Part shown: positions 26,101 to 32,100 of the stretch, piece by piece
Layout: each line of letters starts with the position of its first letter
Numbering within the stretch: the stretch's first letter is position 1
Assembly (NCBI RefSeq): GCF_003018255.1
Contig: NZ_CP027440.1
Direction: 5' to 3' (one strand)
DNA: 64,000 nt
Source: Escherichia coli
GTDB lineage: Bacteria > Pseudomonadota > Gammaproteobacteria > Enterobacterales > Enterobacteriaceae
Program-made: the position numbers

Positions 26101-29100
26101 TTCAACACGTTGTTGTTGCAGTGGCTCTGATTGACCAGGCGCTGTACCGGCCAGTTGTTTGCGCAGGCTGGCTACGTCGGTTTCGGTAGTCACCATCGCC
26201 ATATGCTCGCGCTTTTGCGTCACACTAATCTTCTCAACGCCTTGCGGCAGGTTATTCACCAGAATCCGGTTGGCACGATCGACCGCTTCGCGAGAGTCAC
26301 GGTATTTGTATTGCTGACCAGACATATACAGCGTCTTATCGCGTAGCTGAATTTCTGGCGCGTCAAAGCCCGCGTTATACTTCAGGGCGGTAAGTTGGTT
26401 TGCTACCGTGGTGTACTGCAATCCTTCAGATTCCGGCGCAGGTTGATATGCCGGTTTTGGCGTATCGCGCAGGGCAGGGCGCAGATCGTTGAAATTGGTC
26501 CGTAACGTGAAGCCAAACATCAACGTGTTACCGCGTTCATAACTCAGGTTGAGATCTGCCCAACTGGCAGCGCGATAAACTGCGCCGACGTTGAAATGGC
26601 TTGCCTGCGGCAATTTGCCCGCAAAATCATTCTGGTAATTGTTGCCATCGTATTCGAGTTTCAGACGCAGAGGATTCCACGGCGTTTGATACTCAATACC
26701 GCCCAAAATAGAGGCTGGACCACGAAAGATATCGCTAAAGCTGATATCTCCCGCATCGTGAGACTCTGCGCGATGGCAATATTTATCGCTTACCCGACAA
26801 AACGGGTTGGTAATATTGCCCGCATTACCGGCGTAGCCCCAGGCCATCCCGAGGGTGAAATCGAACGGGCCCGCTTGCTTGCTGGCCACCAAATATTCAC
26901 CGTCAAACAGACCCGTACCAGCAATATCACGTTTACCAAACGCCACTTGCGGTAGCCAGTAACCTTCTTCCCACAGGCGAAGTTTAAAATCGAAAGATTT
27001 GTCTTTGTATGACTGATCGCCGCTGAAATCTTCCCACTGGCTATATTTGCGTGTGCGCACATCCGTATAACGAATGGTGCCTTCCAGCCATGGGAACAGC
27101 GCCACGGAGGTGGAGTAGAAACGGTATTGATCGTTATCCCGGTAGTTTACGCTGAATTCACCTTCCGGTGCGATGCGCGCATTTGGCATCTGCAACAATC
27201 CTGTGCCGCCAAAGTCTGATTGCGACGAACCCAGCGGATCCGGATAGGTTAATACTTCAGCATGACAGGCACTGGAGACGGCAATGGCCAGGCAGCTTAA
27301 AAGATAAGAGTTCTTCTTCATCAGTCAGGAACACGTTGCGTTAAAACAGACACAATCTGGTCATTTAAATCAGCATATTTTTCGGGCAGTACATGCGCAG
27401 AAAAGCCTAACCAAAGCTGGCTGCCAGGCGGTGGTTCCACATGTCTTTTATTCCACAGGGCAACAGGGGCGACGACAGCCTCACCCTCAGGCGTAATCAC
27501 CATAACGTTATTCTTGTCCGCGCCTGCAAGACGGGTGTGATCTTGCAGATAATCGGTAACGCTACGGCCTGCCAGCCAGGGCAATTGCCCAGCCCCAGAA
27601 ACCGCACCTAGCAGAGTAATAGTCACCGGACGCTGTACGGTATAGAGCGTATAGTCCCCGACCAGCGGGGGATTGCTGTTCTCATCCACTCGTACAAAAT
27701 CAGGGTCCAGTTTGACCGGTAAGCGACCAGTGATATTGAGATTGAGTAACTGCTGGCGCACGGATTTAATCGTTGCCACCACATCGTCGTCAGCTTCTGC
27801 TTCCCAGGAAGCAAGCTGTGCCATGACATGTTGGTAGTCTTTAAGCGCTTTAGCTTTCGCCGCAGAGTCGGTCAGCAAGGCACCAGGCCACCAGAGGCGA
27901 TCGCGCAGTTGCGGTTGTGTCACCAACTGGACAACATTTTCCACGGGGCCAACGGAAAGTGTCTGTTGTTCGCCAGGCAGATAAATAGTCACCGTTCCTT
28001 GCGCAAAGGCATGGGGTGTCATTACGTAAAGTACGCTGGCAATGAAATACGACTGTAATTTATTCATGGTGCGGGTTTAAGAAACGTCATTTCTACGGGA
28101 ATAACCCCTGCGCCTAACATTTGCCGACTTTGACGAACCTGGCCACTAGCCGAATCGACCCAGAATGTGTTTTGCCACTGTTTTTCTGGCAGCGTGGAAG
28201 TCACCTCTTCCTGCCAGACATTACACAGCACATCGCGACCCGCAATATTCAGCGTCTCTAATCCAGCAAAGGAAAAAGTGGAACTCAGGGTCGCAGAGCG
28301 AAAATGGTTGTCTTCACTCCAGAGAATATCGCGCGTCCAGCGGCTGCCGTCTTTTATTGCCAGCGCGTTACGCAGAGGGTCCTGCCCGGAATTTGTCACT
28401 TCCAGCAGATTATTATTAAGTTTGACGGTTTTTAAAAGACGTCCATTGTGGGTAACCAGCATGGCGTTATCCTGGGATAACCATTTGCTTTGTTCTTGTT
28501 CTATATATCCCAGTACCACAAAGATTCGTTGCCCTTCATTAAGGCGTAAATACATCGTGGAATAAGGCAACGCCTGGATCTGCTGATCCGCTACGGTGAT
28601 ATCCTGATTATCGAAAAGGCTGGCGCGAAATGTATCGACCATACTTTGCTGGCTGTGCGTACATCCCGCAAGAAATAGTGCGAAAATCGATAAAATAAGA
28701 GGGCGCACCTTTAATCCTTGAAAGGTTAATTAAAAAAATGCAAATCTCTAAAGCCCGGTACGAATATCGCAACCGGGTATCATTTAACTTTAATTTTGAC
28801 GCGTTAAAGCAGTATTAGCGCGTAGTGGACGTGGTGGTTGAGGTGTTATGAGAACCGCCATCGCCACTGTCATTTGCTGCAACTACTGCCAACGTCGCCA
28901 CACCAACAGCCGTTGCCACACCGACAACCGTCGCCGTGCCGACAGCGCCAGCAGCCACGCCACCAGTGGTAGCAGCAGTCGTGGTTGCACCTGTAGTGGT
29001 CGTTGTGGTGCCAGTAGTACCCGTCGTTGCCTCAGTCCCGTTTGCTGCTTCAGGGGCAGCAAATGCAGCTGGCGTCGTCAACATGAAGGCCATAAGGATT

Positions 29101-32100
29101 GCAGAAAGCTTGTGTTTCATAACTTTTCCTTTATTCATCGCATGGACAATACGTACGCTTGAGATCAGGATTATCTACTTTGAGTATAACATCCTTGTGA
29201 AATCTCCCTTTCCTCATACCGCCAGCACTATATACTGCGGGTGGGAAAGGCGCGCAGAGGGAAATATAAGATTGTTAACTATTCCCCTCTGGAAATACGA
29301 CTTGTGAGCATAAGATAAATCTTAGCAAAATACAAATTAAAGATAAGAAAATTGTTAAGAAAGCTATTAACTATTGTTGGTAATATAGTTTCAAGTGGTA
29401 CTATAACTGGCTGTTAAGTGGCATTTATAACTATTAGGTGCAGAGATATTCGCTTAAATGGATTTGTTGCCCGGTGAAAAAGTAACTTGCGTTATAATTT
29501 ATGGTGTTGACTATTGAGCTATTCCAATAAAACCAGCCAACTTTAAACAAGCAACTCATATTAAGAGAGATAAACATTTGCCGCTGTTGGTCCTCGCAGG
29601 CCATTTACGCGGCAAAATTCCACGCGTAATCCTGGTATAAGCACTTCTGCGTCGCGGGGAGTGAATGCGGAAATATGGACCTGGACTTCTTTACGACCGT
29701 CGGAGGGGATAATGAATCCTTTGCCGCTTTTGCGATCAAAGGTTTTGACAATTCCTGTCATTTTACGGGACAAACAAATTCCTTACTGAAAATACTGCGC
29801 TGCACTATACGGGGTTAATAAAATAAAGCCAGCGATATTTAAGACCGCCGGACGGCTAAAATAAAATTTGCTTAATCTCAATTATCATGCGTTAATAGCT
29901 GCGTCGGTTTGAAAGACAGACAGCATACAAAGTAGTTTACTAAAGCAGTTCTCATTATCAGGCATTATCCCCTTCTTTTGAGTCTCTCTCCTGAACACTA
30001 AGTAGTTTCTGTACTAAAGCCCTGTTTGCCGAAAGGCCCAAAATGAAGGAAGTAAAATATGTCTAATAAAATGACTGGTTTAGTAAAATGGTTTAACGCA
30101 GATAAAGGTTTTGGCTTTATCACTCCTGATGATGGCAGCAAAGACGTTTTCGTCCATTTCACCGCCATCCAGAGCAATGAATTCCGCACGCTGAACGAAA
30201 ATCAGAAAGTTGAATTTTCTATTGAGCAGGGGCAACGTGGTCCCGCGGCAGCGAACGTTGTTACGCTCTAAGGTTGCCGTTATTACTCCACATCTCCATT
30301 TCCGCTGTCCATGTTGTCATGGTTCACAGTACCGCACATCGGCATTCGATGTGACGGAGCGAAATCCTTTAGGGGCAAAGTGTATTTTTTGTAAATCGAC
30401 GATGATCACCTTTGATAACGTCGCGCTGCAAATACGCACTGACCATGCGCCGCTGGATTTCACAAAATAATATCAGGCTCCCTCGTGGAGCCTTTTTTAT
30501 ATCTGCCTTATTTTTCTTCAACGCTGTATGTATAGTAAGCGATAACCTGTTGATTATTGAATCTTTCGGGGAGATGGCTTATAACATTTCTTACCTGACC
30601 AGGGTACCGGGAACCAACACCTTACTGGCGTGTTGCTGTCTTTCAAGACCAGAAGAGGTTAACAGTGAATATTGAAGAGTTAAAAAAACAAGCCGAAACG
30701 GAAATCGCTGACTTTATCGCGCAAAAAATCGCCGAGCTGAACAAGAATACAGGGAAAGAAGTCTCTGAAATTCGCTTCACCGCACGAGAAAAAATGACCG
30801 GGCTTGAAAGTTATGATGTCAAAATCAAAATAATGTGATTTTGTGAACATCACCCGTGCGAGGTGATGTTCCGCTTGTTGCTAATTTAGTGGCCAATCAT
30901 TGGCGCTTGTGGAATTAAGCGTCGGTACAATTCCTCCGGCACCGGGCTTTGCCATACTCCCGCATACATTGCGTAACCAATCACCGCAAACATAATCCCC
31001 AGAATCAGTAGCGTCATTAACCAGCCAGACAACGCAAAGGCTTTTTTATTTGCCGCAGGTTTTTGCAGTGAAAAGGTCAATGTTGAGGCTACCGGACATG
31101 ACTCTACGCAAGTCATACAGCCGGTACATTCCACTGTTCGTACCTGAATTAATTTATCGACCGGGATCCGTGATGGGCAATTTTTTGCGCATTTGCCACA
31201 GTCGATACAACTTTCGGCATTGCGACGAATCTTAAACGGCGATAATAGCGAAACCACGCCCATCAGCGCGCCATATGGGCAAAGATAACGACACCAGGCA
31301 TGGCGAATAAACAGGCTGGCAATCAGCAAAACGATCATGCTGATTAATGTCGCGGTCCCCATATGACGAAAGAAATTGAGCATTTTAACGTCCATCACCA
31401 CGCTGTAGGGCGACAACATAAAATAGTGAATCGCCTGAGCGGGCATCAATAACGCAATATAGAGAAAAAAACTCAACAGCAAATACTTCACGCCGCGCAG
31501 AGGAGTATCCAGCCAGCGGGGAAGGACAAATTGCCGACCAAACAGTTTGTTACCGAGATCGCCGATTAATTCAGAAAGCGTACCAACCGGGCATAACCAT
31601 GAACAAAAGGCCTTTTTTAATAATAGACTGATGACGATAAAAGCGACCAATAACAGCATCGCGGCGGCGTGGACGGACGGTAACTGGCCTGTTGCAAGGC
31701 TATATTTCAGATTCATCAGACCGGCAATCGGTAGCCAGCCTTCGATACCTCCCGGTCTGGTGACAAATGTCGTACTACCTGCCGTTTCGTAATAGCGCAC
31801 CCAATACCAGAACGTGATGGCAATATAAATATTCATTGCCAACAGTAATAATTGCGTCGCTTTACGCCAGGTCGTGGCATTGCGCCAGTCATTCCACGGT
31901 AATTTGCCGCCCGTCGTGCTTGGCCGCCGCTGCCAGCGGGTTCTTCTTTTCTCTGTCATGATTTTGCCAGTCCGTTAAGTTGCATACCAAATGCCACTAT
32001 TCTAGTTGTTCTTAACTGGCTGATATTGATTCAAATCGCGTTCAGGTCTTTCTTATGCAACCATGCTTCCAGAGCGGCAACACTGCGTGTAATTTCTTCG

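What the first reader, a model, noticed from the sequence alone, without database searches (positions are those of the whole stretch)
28815..29120. GfcA is dominated by a Thr/Gly/Ala low-complexity tract
After the signal peptide the mature protein is almost entirely TTGTTGTTTTTTGATTTAATTGG..., ending NTSTTTSTTR. This reads like a mucin-like or glycosylation-target module. The antisense frame yields a spurious Pro/Val-rich ORF (28936..29307) as a mirror artefact. Such tracts are prone to length variation between strains.
Basis: seen in the sequence. Interest (0 to 1): 0.25.

Follow-up and report, generated by a model that had tools for sequence, protein, structure and literature searches.

The report
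Threonine-rich capsule protein GfcA
This is gfcA, the known first gene of the E. coli group 4 capsule operon. Its threonine-rich stretch is real, but it is a lineage-specific flexible linker of almost fixed length in E. coli, so the finding is ordinary.

Summary
Window 28815-29120 (minus strand) encodes the 101-aa GfcA. It has a Sec signal peptide, and the 80-aa mature part is 32.5% Thr and 70% Thr+Gly+Ala. The quoted sequences and the antisense ORF 28936-29307 are exact.

The gene is already known. RefSeq names it "threonine-rich inner membrane protein GfcA". Its 30% Thr content and a possible O-antigen modification are already in print, and deleting gfcA abolishes the capsule.

What I add:
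- **Family.** GfcA belongs to a YjbE/GfcA family. A small gene of this type sits directly upstream of yjbF/gfcB in 78 of 80 species loci.
- **Conserved parts.** These are the signal peptide, a G-x-AAG motif, a hydrophobic segment and a C-terminal GDG...oligo-Thr tail.
- **The Thr tract.** It is an Escherichia-specific insertion in a variable linker.
- **Length variation.** It is not supported within E. coli. None of about 98 sampled complete genomes differs in length, and 1 of 57 metagenome contigs does (-15 nt). Length does differ between species (E. albertii 94 and 96 aa; other genera 78-115 aa).
- **Antisense ORF.** It is a predictable codon-mirror artefact.

Glycosylation remains untested. 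The operon encodes no glycosyltransferase.

The parts
28815..29120 (-). gfcA (ymcD) coding sequence, 101 codons plus stop; first gene of the group 4 capsule operon
   Evidence: ORF. Translation identical to the RefSeq GfcA allele WP_001299283.1. Megablast match covering at least 80% of the 621-nt query (which spans gfcA) in 3,550 of 5,426 complete E. coli genomes.
29127..29131 (-). Shine-Dalgarno AAGGA, ending 6 nt (29121-29126) before the ATG at 29118-29120
   Evidence: Read directly from the sequence. RefSeq uses this start in all 11 loci inspected.
29058..29120 (-). Sec signal peptide, residues 1-21 (MKHKLSAILMAFMLTTPAAFA), predicted cleavage AFA|AP
   Evidence: Sequence rule (n-, h- and c-regions, A-x-A). 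21/21 identical in E. albertii and Escherichia sp. MOD1. A21 is invariant in the family alignment. AF2 predicts a helix at 2-14.
28965..29057 (-). Variable linker, residues 22-52, holding the Thr/Gly/Ala tract (Thr-dense core residues 31-52, 28965-29030)
   Evidence: Aligns to gaps in nearly all other family members. Only 17/31 residues identical, with 5-6 gaps, against E. albertii. AF2 gives no secondary structure and block-mean pLDDT 42-51. A rare in-frame 15-nt deletion occurs in L129.
28872..28964 (-). Conserved core, residues 53-83: GG-V-AAGA-V-G motif followed by a hydrophobic Gly/Ala/Val segment
   Evidence: G54, A56, A57, G58, G61 and A81 are invariant or at least 90% conserved across 27 family members. 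29/31 identical to E. albertii. KD maximum 2.16. AF2 helix at 55-83 with low confidence.
28893..28946 (.). Imperfect 18-nt x3 tandem repeat encoding hexapeptide units (VVGVAT, AVGVAT, ...) inside the hydrophobic segment
   Evidence: TRF period 18, 2.4 copies, 84% matches. Family D2, three copies at 78-100% identity. One metagenome contig (L148) has lost one unit.
28815..28871 (-). C-terminal tail, residues 84-101 (DSGDGGSHNTSTTTSTTR) plus stop; a degenerate form of the family's GDG(S/A)NTG-T5-7-xTT(R/Q) ending
   Evidence: Family alignment: T95, T96, T97 and T99 are at least 90% conserved. 17/18 identical to E. albertii. The last residue is polymorphic R/H/P.
28936..29307 (+). Antisense Pro/Val-rich ORF, 123 codons; a mirror artefact, not a gene
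   Evidence: Listed. Explained by the codon mirror in the wobble-coincident frame. Its 3' end differs between alleles and IS1 truncates it in K-12. No Pfam family.
28064..28708 (-). gfcB, YjbF-family lipoprotein
   Evidence: Pfam PF11102 YjbF, E 2.7e-69.
27321..28067 (-). gfcC
   Evidence: Pfam Caps_syn_GfcC_N and Caps_syn_GfcC_C.
25225..27321 (-). gfcD, YjbH-family outer-membrane protein
   Evidence: Pfam PF06082 YjbH, E 9e-269.
21406..25200 (-). gfcE (Wza-like), etp (LMW phosphotyrosine phosphatase) and etk (Wzc-like tyrosine kinase): the rest of the operon, with no glycosyltransferase
   Evidence: ORFs. Pfam Poly_export/SLBB/Wza_C, LMWPc, and Wzz/GNVR/AAA_31.

Best explanation
The region is gfcA (ymcD), the first gene of the intact group 4 capsule operon gfcABCDE-etp-etk.

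It encodes a 101-aa precursor that the Sec pathway exports and that is most likely cleaved after AFA21. The roughly 80-aa mature protein has low sequence complexity and four modules:
1. A disordered Thr/Gly/Ala linker (residues 22-52).
2. A conserved GG-x-AAGA-x-G motif.
3. A hydrophobic Gly/Ala/Val segment (residues 55-83).
4. An acidic DSGDGG motif followed by an oligo-Thr C-terminus.

GfcA belongs to the YjbE/GfcA family of small exported proteins. A gene of this type is found immediately upstream of YjbF/GfcB-GfcC-YjbH/GfcD genes across Enterobacterales.

The conspicuous internal Thr tract is an Escherichia-specific expansion of a linker whose length and sequence drift between genera. It is not the conserved, function-defining part. 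Within E. coli it is neither a simple DNA repeat nor length-variable.

Inferred mechanism, not shown: mature GfcA acts in the cell envelope as a small accessory or cargo partner of the GfcB/C/D outer-membrane module, which the capsule requires. Its hydrophobic segment and conserved tail would make the functional contacts. The Thr tract would serve as a hydrophilic flexible spacer that may or may not carry glycan.
For: **Identity and context**
- establish the gene and the operon.
- Published genetics: deleting gfcA in EPEC abolishes the capsule, and gfcA alone on a plasmid restores it (PMC3853201). All seven genes are required (PMC4368438).

**Family**
- 78 of 80 yjbF/gfcB loci from different species carry a small upstream ORF with the same architecture. 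The other two loci lack upstream sequence.
- The distant homologues P0032 and P0033 also sit upstream of YjbF-GfcC-YjbH genes.
- A profile-profile comparison of the GfcA clade with the YjbE clade gives 97.9% probability, E 3.4e-13, over the full length.

**The tract is a lineage-specific linker**
- It aligns to gaps in the other members.
- It is the fastest-diverging segment against E. albertii: 17/31 identical plus 5-6 gaps. The signal peptide is 21/21, the core 29/31 and the tail 17/18.
- AF2 predicts no structure there.

**Length is stable in E. coli**
- Evenly sampled rows show no indel in gfcA.
- The CDS is 306 nt in all inspected loci.
- 56 of 57 metagenome contigs have the canonical length.
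- Codon usage is mixed and there is no perfect repeat.
- 10 of 14 polymorphic sites among 11 alleles are synonymous third positions.
Against: - The mechanistic part is inference. No experiment or computation here shows where mature GfcA resides or what it touches.
- AF2 on a paired, linker-fused GfcA-GfcB-GfcC alignment folded GfcB and GfcC confidently (pLDDT above 90) but left GfcA at pLDDT 22-31. That gives no predicted complex.
- E. coli GfcA does not reach the Pfam YjbE model (no hit at E up to 10), and BLASTP finds no alignment to YjbE. Homology therefore rests on synteny, architecture and a profile comparison that shared low complexity and signal peptides could inflate.
- The E. coli length census is a sample of about 98 of 3,673 genomes, not a full count. 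The metagenome pattern allowed only -15 to +15 nt and required exact anchors.
Confidence: 0.8

Rival explanations
1. Glycosylation-target (mucin-like) module. Exported GfcA would be O-glycosylated on its Thr residues, possibly with O-antigen polymer. It would then be handed to GfcB/C/D for export, giving a protein-linked capsule component. 2021.
For: - The mature protein is 32.5% Thr and carries a Sec signal peptide.
- An oligo-Thr C-terminus is the most conserved family feature.
- The family always sits next to GfcBCD/YjbFGH genes.
- The capsule needs gfcA.
- The speculation is published (PMC8592465).
- A computational model proposes that GfcD exports anchored polysaccharide (PMC11494523).
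Against: - The operon has no glycosyltransferase or oligosaccharyltransferase.
- The internal tract has no Pro and is missing from most family members.
- If residues 55-83 span the inner membrane, the conserved Thr tail would face the cytoplasm.
- None of the papers I read reports a modified GfcA.
Confidence: 0.15
2. Single-pass inner-membrane protein, as the database name says. After signal-peptide cleavage, residues 55-83 would form a transmembrane helix. The Thr tract would be a periplasmic stalk and the tail would be cytoplasmic. This overlaps with the best explanation and differs from it only in location.
For: - The Kyte-Doolittle 19-residue maximum is 2.16.
- AF2 predicts a 29-residue helix at 55-83 (low confidence).
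- SOSUI predicts one transmembrane segment, and YmcD overexpression lowers intracellular D-alanine (PMC10299036).
Against: - The homologous segment in the YjbE clade reaches only KD 1.0-1.4 and is about 10 residues long. A transmembrane anchor is therefore not a family feature.
- The tail is net acidic (two Asp, one Arg, plus the C-terminal carboxylate), which goes against the positive-inside rule.
- The helix disappears in the fused AF2 model.
Confidence: 0.3
3. Strain-variable (contingency-type) repeat tract. Its length would change by slippage to modulate the capsule.
For: - Rare in-frame variants exist. L129 has a 15-nt loss (GATTT) between ACCAC direct repeats, in an otherwise intact operon. 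L148 has lost one 18-nt unit.
- E. albertii strains differ from each other (94 versus 96 aa).
Against: - Codons are mixed and there is no perfect repeat.
- 0 of about 98 sampled complete genomes and 1 of 57 metagenome contigs differ in tract length.
- The operon is switched off by IS insertion or whole-operon loss instead.
Confidence: 0.03
4. The plus-strand Pro/Val-rich ORF 28936-29307 is the real gene and gfcA is its shadow.
For: It is longer than gfcA (123 versus 101 codons), and the equivalent frame stays open in the other Escherichia alleles.
Against: - It has a GTG start. I did not examine the sequence upstream of it for a ribosome-binding site.
- It runs through the gfcA start into upstream DNA, where it accumulates non-synonymous changes and shifting stops. 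IS1 cuts it in K-12.
- It has no Pfam match.
- The sense strand has a Shine-Dalgarno sequence, a signal peptide, conserved synteny and a family motif retained across genera.
- gfcA complements its own deletion.
Confidence: 0.01

Closest known systems
E. coli GfcA / YmcD (RefSeq 'threonine-rich inner membrane protein GfcA', WP_001299283.1 and WP_001295358.1)
   Same: Identical in sequence to the WP_001299283.1 allele found in O157:H7 and other strains. It differs from the K-12 allele at two residues (A26T, A50T). The position is the same, between cspH and gfcB.
   Different: Nothing substantive. Unlike K-12, this window has no IS1 upstream of the gene.
YjbE (Pfam PF11106), first gene of the E. 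coli yjbEFGH exopolysaccharide operon
   Same: Same operon position upstream of YjbF/GfcC/YjbH-family genes. Same architecture: signal peptide ending A-x-A|AP, G-x-AAG motif, Ser/Thr/Ala/Gly low complexity, short hydrophobic stretch, and a GDG...oligo-Thr C-terminus. Profile-profile probability 97.9%.
   Different: - GfcA is 21 residues longer because of the internal Thr tract.
- Its hydrophobic segment is far stronger (KD 2.16 versus 1.24).
- Its oligo-Thr tail is degenerate (TSTTTSTT instead of T7).
- It fails the PF11106 model and BLASTP finds no alignment.
Eukaryotic-type mucin (PTS) domains and bacterial Ser/Thr-rich glycoproteins (serine-rich repeat adhesins, PglL-type O-glycosylation targets)
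   Same: An exported, hydroxy-amino-acid-rich, predicted disordered segment.
   Different: This comparison rests on general knowledge and was not tested here. GfcA has one Pro in the mature protein, no regular tandem repeat, no dedicated glycosyltransferase or accessory secretion genes in the locus, and is only about 80 residues long.
PEP-CTERM / GlyGly-CTERM sorting-signal proteins of exopolysaccharide loci
   Same: A small exported protein linked to a polysaccharide locus. It has a Thr/Ser-rich region, then a short Gly motif and a hydrophobic helix near the C-terminus. This is a resemblance from general knowledge.
   Different: The helix is followed by an 18-residue acidic, Thr-rich tail rather than a basic cluster. 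No PEP motif is present. No NCBIfam model of that kind matched; the only hit was WGxxGxxG_fam at 17.3 bits against a cutoff of 35.

Membership tests
E. coli GfcA (first gene of gfcABCDE-etp-etk) | Sequence identity to annotated GfcA | tested here: met
   Translation identical to loci annotated WP_001299283.1. 99/101 identical to the K-12 allele WP_001295358.1.
E. coli GfcA (first gene of gfcABCDE-etp-etk) | Position directly upstream of gfcB-gfcC-gfcD-gfcE-etp-etk, between cspH and appA | tested here: met
   Pfam assignments for all six downstream genes. cspH lies at 29561-29773. ORFs of the size expected for appCBA lie at 17105-21286 but I did not check their identity; appA next to cspH is annotated only in other genomes.
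E. coli GfcA (first gene of gfcABCDE-etp-etk) | Required for group 4 capsule formation | not testable with these tools
   Published for EPEC O127: the gfcA deletion lacks capsule and pgfcA complements it (PMC3853201). Not shown for this strain.
YjbE family (Pfam PF11106) | Score at or above the gathering threshold (27.9 bits) | tested here: not met
   No hit at E up to 10 for the window protein. The E. albertii orthologue scores 9.3 bits and P0032 24 bits. 19 of 27 family members match at E up to 0.01.
YjbE family (Pfam PF11106) | Small signal-peptide protein encoded immediately upstream of a YjbF-family gene | tested here: met
   Window layout. The same layout occurs in 78 of 80 species loci.
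YjbE family (Pfam PF11106) | Shared architecture and detectable profile-level homology | tested here: met
   Alignment A2. hhalign 97.9%, E 3.4e-13. Low complexity may inflate the score.
Single-pass inner-membrane protein | Hydrophobic segment of transmembrane length and strength | tested here: met
   KD 19-residue maximum 2.16 at residues 64-82. AF2 helix at 55-83 with block-mean pLDDT about 42-59.
Single-pass inner-membrane protein | Positive-inside charge bias and conservation of the transmembrane segment among homologues | tested here: not met
   The tail DSGDGGSHNTSTTTSTTR is net acidic. YjbE-clade homologues reach only KD 1.0-1.4.
Single-pass inner-membrane protein | Experimental localisation in the inner membrane | not testable with these tools
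   Only predictions are available (SOSUI in PMC10299036).
Mucin-like / O-glycosylated module | High Ser/Thr content in an exported, disordered segment | tested here: met
   32.5% Thr in the mature protein. No predicted structure at residues 22-54.
Mucin-like / O-glycosylated module | Pro-rich tandem-repeat organisation | tested here: not met
   One Pro in the mature protein. Only imperfect 15- and 18-nt periodicities.
Mucin-like / O-glycosylated module | Cognate glycosyltransferase or oligosaccharyltransferase in the locus | tested here: not met
   Operon products are YjbF, GfcC, YjbH, Wza-like, LMW-PTP and Wzc-like proteins.
Mucin-like / O-glycosylated module | Glycan detected on the protein | not testable with these tools
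   None of the papers I read reports one.
Length-variable (contingency) repeat tract | Homopolymeric or perfect short tandem DNA repeat | tested here: not met
   Thr codons are mixed (ACG 12, ACT 7, ACC 7, ACA 2). Read from the tract codon string, no codon occurs more than twice in a row. TRF finds only 76-84% matching units.
Length-variable (contingency) repeat tract | Frequent length polymorphism between strains | tested here: not met
   No indel in gfcA in about 98 sampled complete genomes. 1 of 57 metagenome contigs has a tract-length change.

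The most novel reading that the evidence does not exclude
GfcA/YjbE-family proteins would be the cargo or primer of the widespread GfcBCD/YjbFGH machinery. The exported peptide would be O-glycosylated, on the conserved C-terminal oligo-Thr tail and, in Escherichia, also on the inserted tract. The glycan would be O-antigen or exopolysaccharide. The LolA-like GfcB, together with GfcC, would carry the peptide across the periplasm. It would then be inserted or released through the double-barrel GfcD, giving a protein-anchored capsule. That would explain how group 4 capsule is held on the cell.
Probability: 0.1. Interest if true: 0.65.

Novelty: already known. Interest (0 to 1): 0.15.

Why it matters
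As the finding is stated, it matters little. The gene, its threonine richness and the glycosylation idea are all in the databases and the literature. The predicted strain-to-strain length variation is not there.

What remains of value is context for an open question. GfcA was still described as 'entirely uncharacterized' in 2024 (PMC11494523), although the capsule requires it.

The comparative picture shows which parts are conserved. These are the G-x-AAG motif, the hydrophobic segment and the GDG...oligo-Thr C-terminus, not the eye-catching Thr tract. That tells anyone who does the mutagenesis or mass spectrometry where to look.

Tried and rejected
- **BLASTP, GfcA against YjbE:** no alignment.
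- **Pfam and NCBIfam on GfcA:** nothing above threshold. The only hit was WGxxGxxG_fam at 17.3 bits against a cutoff of 35, treated as noise.
- **PDB sequence search:** no match at E up to 1.
- **Exhaustive phmmer against 1.84 billion representatives:** only 15 hits, mostly frameshifted E. coli copies. Two were useful distant members.
- **Exact-sequence look-ups of the 101- and 107-aa forms:** not in the collection, which I cannot explain.
- **AF2 of GfcA with the family alignment:** low confidence (pLDDT 55). I ran no fold search because it would be meaningless.
- **AF2 of a paired, linker-fused mature GfcA-GfcB-GfcC alignment:** GfcA stayed at pLDDT 22-31, so there is no sign of co-folding. 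The tool reports no PAE or contacts and the alignment has only 21 rows, so this is a weak negative.
- **Codon-position test to tell the sense and antisense frames apart:** uninformative, because the wobble positions of the two frames coincide. I used the ends of the ORF, synteny and family conservation instead.
- **Promoter and terminator scan of 28650-29620:** no sites.
- **Hairpin in the gfcA-gfcB spacer:** z = -1.89 with no adjacent U-run, so it is not a canonical terminator.
- **Rfam on 28000-31000:** only the cspA thermoregulator at cspG.

Full report
**What is there**

The window is E. coli. The 621-nt query around the finding is 100% identical to strain MEI003, and 3,673 of 5,426 complete genomes hold a match.

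On the minus strand, 28815-29120 is a 306-nt ORF. It is preceded by AAGGA at 29127-29131. A longer in-frame start at 29138 exists, but RefSeq uses 29120 in every locus I inspected.

The product is MKHKLSAILMAFMLTTPAAFA|APEAANGTEATTGTTGTTTTTTGATTTAATTGGVAAGAVGTATVVGVATAVGVATLAVVAANDSGDGGSHNTSTTTSTTR. It is identical to alleles annotated 'threonine-rich inner membrane protein GfcA', WP_001299283.1.

Downstream on the same strand lie:
- gfcB (Pfam YjbF), gfcC and gfcD (Pfam YjbH).
- gfcE (Wza-like), etp (LMW phosphotyrosine phosphatase) and etk (Wzc-like kinase).

cspH and cspG lie upstream. The group 4 capsule operon is therefore complete. Unlike K-12, it has no IS1 in front of it.

**Check of the observation**

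- The mature 80 residues contain 26 Thr (32.5%), 17 Ala, 13 Gly and 9 Val, so Thr+Gly+Ala make up 70%.
- The chance of at least 28 Thr in 101 residues is 4.5e-13, at an assumed background frequency of 5.4% (my figure for the proteome average).
- The description is incomplete, because the protein is modular:
  - signal peptide, residues 1-21;
  - acidic start and Thr/Gly/Ala tract, residues 22-52;
  - GG-V-AAGA-V-G motif and a hydrophobic Gly/Ala/Val segment, residues 53-83, with a Kyte-Doolittle maximum of 2.16;
  - tail DSGDGGSHNTSTTTSTTR.
- The hydrophobic segment carries an imperfect 18-nt x3 repeat at 28893-28946, which encodes hexapeptide units.

**The antisense ORF**

The plus-strand frame of 28936-29307 shares its wobble positions with gfcA. 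In that frame sense ACN (Thr) reads as GTN (Val), GGN (Gly) as CCN (Pro), GCN as GCN and GTN as ACN. An antisense stop can arise only opposite a sense Tyr, His or Gln codon.

GfcA has no Tyr or Gln and two His. The open frame starts right after the TGA opposite Ser89-His90 and runs through the gfcA start into non-coding DNA.

Beyond the gfcA start, the ORF's end shifts between alleles, IS1 cuts it in K-12, and it accumulates non-synonymous differences against E. albertii. It matches no Pfam family. 'Mirror artefact' is correct and fully explained.

Because the wobble positions coincide, the excess of third-position polymorphism (10 of 14 sites) cannot by itself tell the two frames apart.

**Length variation**

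The DNA is not a simple repeat. Thr codons are mixed (ACG 12, ACT 7, ACC 7, ACA 2), and only 76-84% matching 15- and 18-nt periodicities are found.

*Complete genomes.* I took evenly spaced samples down the ranking of all matching genomes.
- 58 rows and 40 rows contain an uninterrupted gfcA.
- The matched span equals the query span, or the query span plus a 777-nt IS1 insertion, with a few exceptions.
- The 1,737-nt query is itself 1 nt shorter than most genomes. That offset lies outside the 621-nt region.
- H50 and H55 carry a 1-nt indel and H99 a 22-nt deletion. In all three the annotated gfcA CDS is still 306 nt, so the changes lie outside the gene.
- All 11 annotated loci I opened have a 306-nt CDS.

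*Metagenomes.* An independent scan used exact anchors on both sides of the tract and allowed a 60-90 nt gap. It found 57 contigs.
- 56 have the canonical 75-nt gap.
- L129 has lost 15 nt (GATTT) between ACCAC direct repeats, in an otherwise intact gfcABCD operon.
- L148 has lost one 18-nt unit of the hydrophobic repeat.
- The same 5-residue (GATTT) loss also appears in P0002, in genomes where gfcA is followed directly by a Wza-like gene and no gfcB, gfcC or gfcD gene is called between them.

*What does vary.*
- The whole operon is absent from about a third of genomes, where appA abuts cspH.
- IS elements insert in and around gfcA.

**Comparison across species**

*Sequence searches.* They reach few relatives, but two distant ones are informative. 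P0032 (86 aa) and P0033 (105 aa) both sit directly upstream of YjbF-GfcC-YjbH genes. P0032 weakly matches Pfam YjbE (24 bits).

*Search through the neighbour.* I searched one genome per species using a GfcB/YjbF alignment and obtained 80 loci. In 78 of them a small ORF lies immediately upstream; the other two lack upstream sequence. Each small ORF has:
- a signal peptide ending A-x-A|AP;
- Ala/Gly/Ser/Thr low complexity with a G-x-AAG motif;
- a short hydrophobic Gly/Ala/Val/Leu/Ile stretch;
- a strikingly conserved ending, GDG(S/A)NTG-T5-7-x-T-T-(R/Q).

*Where the Thr tract falls.* In the 27-sequence alignment the invariant or nearly invariant positions of GfcA are G54, A56, A57, G58, G61, A81 and T95-T97/T99. 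The internal Thr tract aligns to gaps in almost all other members. Other lineages have different insertions (Ala/Gly/Gln/Ser-rich) at the same place, and total lengths run from 78 to 115 aa.

*Divergence from E. albertii (94 and 96 aa).*

| Segment | Identical residues |
|---|---|
| Signal peptide | 21/21 |
| Core | 29/31 |
| Tail | 17/18 |
| Linker with Thr tract | 17/31, plus 5-6 gaps |

The tract is therefore an Escherichia-specific expansion of a fast-evolving linker. Length variation is real between species and genera, but not between E. coli strains.

*Family membership.* A profile-profile comparison of the GfcA clade with the YjbE clade gives 97.9% probability (E 3.4e-13) over the full length. 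E. coli GfcA itself fails the Pfam YjbE model, and BLASTP finds no alignment to YjbE.

**Structure and location**

AF2 with the family alignment gives a low-confidence model (pLDDT 55). It has helices at 2-14 and 55-83 and nothing in between. That fits a disordered tract.

The database label 'inner membrane protein' rests on the hydrophobic segment; SOSUI also predicts one transmembrane segment (PMC10299036). Two observations argue against it. The homologous segment in the YjbE clade is too short and too weak (KD 1.0-1.4), and the tail is net acidic. A transmembrane anchor is thus not a family feature, and the location of mature GfcA stays open.

I also tested whether GfcA might co-fold with its neighbours. 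I used a paired, linker-fused mature GfcA-GfcB-GfcC alignment from 21 species. GfcB and GfcC folded at pLDDT above 90, but GfcA stayed at 22-31. This is a weak negative.

**What is already published**

- Larson et al. [quoted passage not shown] - Fruet et al. 2024 (PMC11494523) call GfcA 'entirely uncharacterized'. They model GfcD as an exporter of anchored polysaccharide.
- Thomassin et al. 2013 (PMC3853201) show that an EPEC gfcA deletion lacks capsule and that gfcA alone complements it.
- All seven operon genes are required (cited in PMC4368438).
[quoted passage not shown] The authors infer Rcs activation and suggest the mutation may perturb the outer membrane (PMC8117528). This is weakly consistent with the small protein being harmful without its partners.

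**Most likely mechanism**

*Shown.* GfcA is an exported, low-complexity member of a family tied to GfcBCD/YjbFGH, and the capsule requires it.

*Inferred.* The conserved G-x-AAG motif, hydrophobic segment and GDG...oligo-Thr tail carry the function through contacts with the membrane or with the GfcB/C/D module. The Thr tract is a flexible hydrophilic spacer. Whether any Thr carries glycan is unknown. The operon encodes no glycosyltransferase, and the internal tract cannot be the family's essential acceptor because most members lack it.

**Verdict**

The feature is already known and its interest is low.

Noticed in passing
window 29121-29560 (gfcA-cspH intergenic); L095, L001, L099: This window has no insertion sequence upstream of gfcA. 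K-12 strains carry IS1 88 nt upstream. Other genomes have IS1 replacing gfcA, IS1 inside gfcB, or IS3 upstream. The locus appears to be a recurrent IS target, which would switch the capsule operon off.
   Followed up: partly
window 21406-29120 (whole gfc-etk block); L159: About a third of the 5,426 complete E. coli genomes lack the entire gfcABCDE-etp-etk block, and appA directly abuts cspH. Presence or absence of the operon, not tract length, is the main polymorphism at this locus.
   Followed up: partly
window 28893-28946: An imperfect 18-nt x3 tandem repeat encodes hexapeptide units of the hydrophobic segment. One metagenome contig (L148) has lost exactly one unit, giving a 95-aa protein.
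   Followed up: partly
window 28818-28820 (last codon of gfcA): The C-terminal residue is polymorphic (Arg, His or Pro) among E. coli alleles. RefSeq names the two common Arg-ending alleles GfcA, but labels the His and Pro variants, and an Arg-ending variant carrying T76A, 'hypothetical protein'. This is an annotation inconsistency.
   Followed up: partly
window 28753-28778, minus strand (gfcA-gfcB spacer): A hairpin, ACCCGGU...ACCGGGC, lies in the 106-nt spacer after gfcA. The folding z-score is only -1.89, and the U-run lies about 12 nt downstream, so it is not a canonical terminator. It could still matter for the reported very high gfcA expression (PMC3853201).
   Followed up: partly
protein collection look-ups (no window coordinate): The exact 101-aa and 107-aa GfcA sequences are reported as absent from the 15-billion-protein collection, although a 101-aa gene is called next to gfcB in L101. 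The homology search returned mostly frameshifted or read-through copies. I have no explanation.
   Followed up: no
window 29903-30325, plus strand: The cspA thermoregulator (Rfam RF01766, 155 bits) covers the cspG leader and gene. This is ordinary.
   Followed up: no
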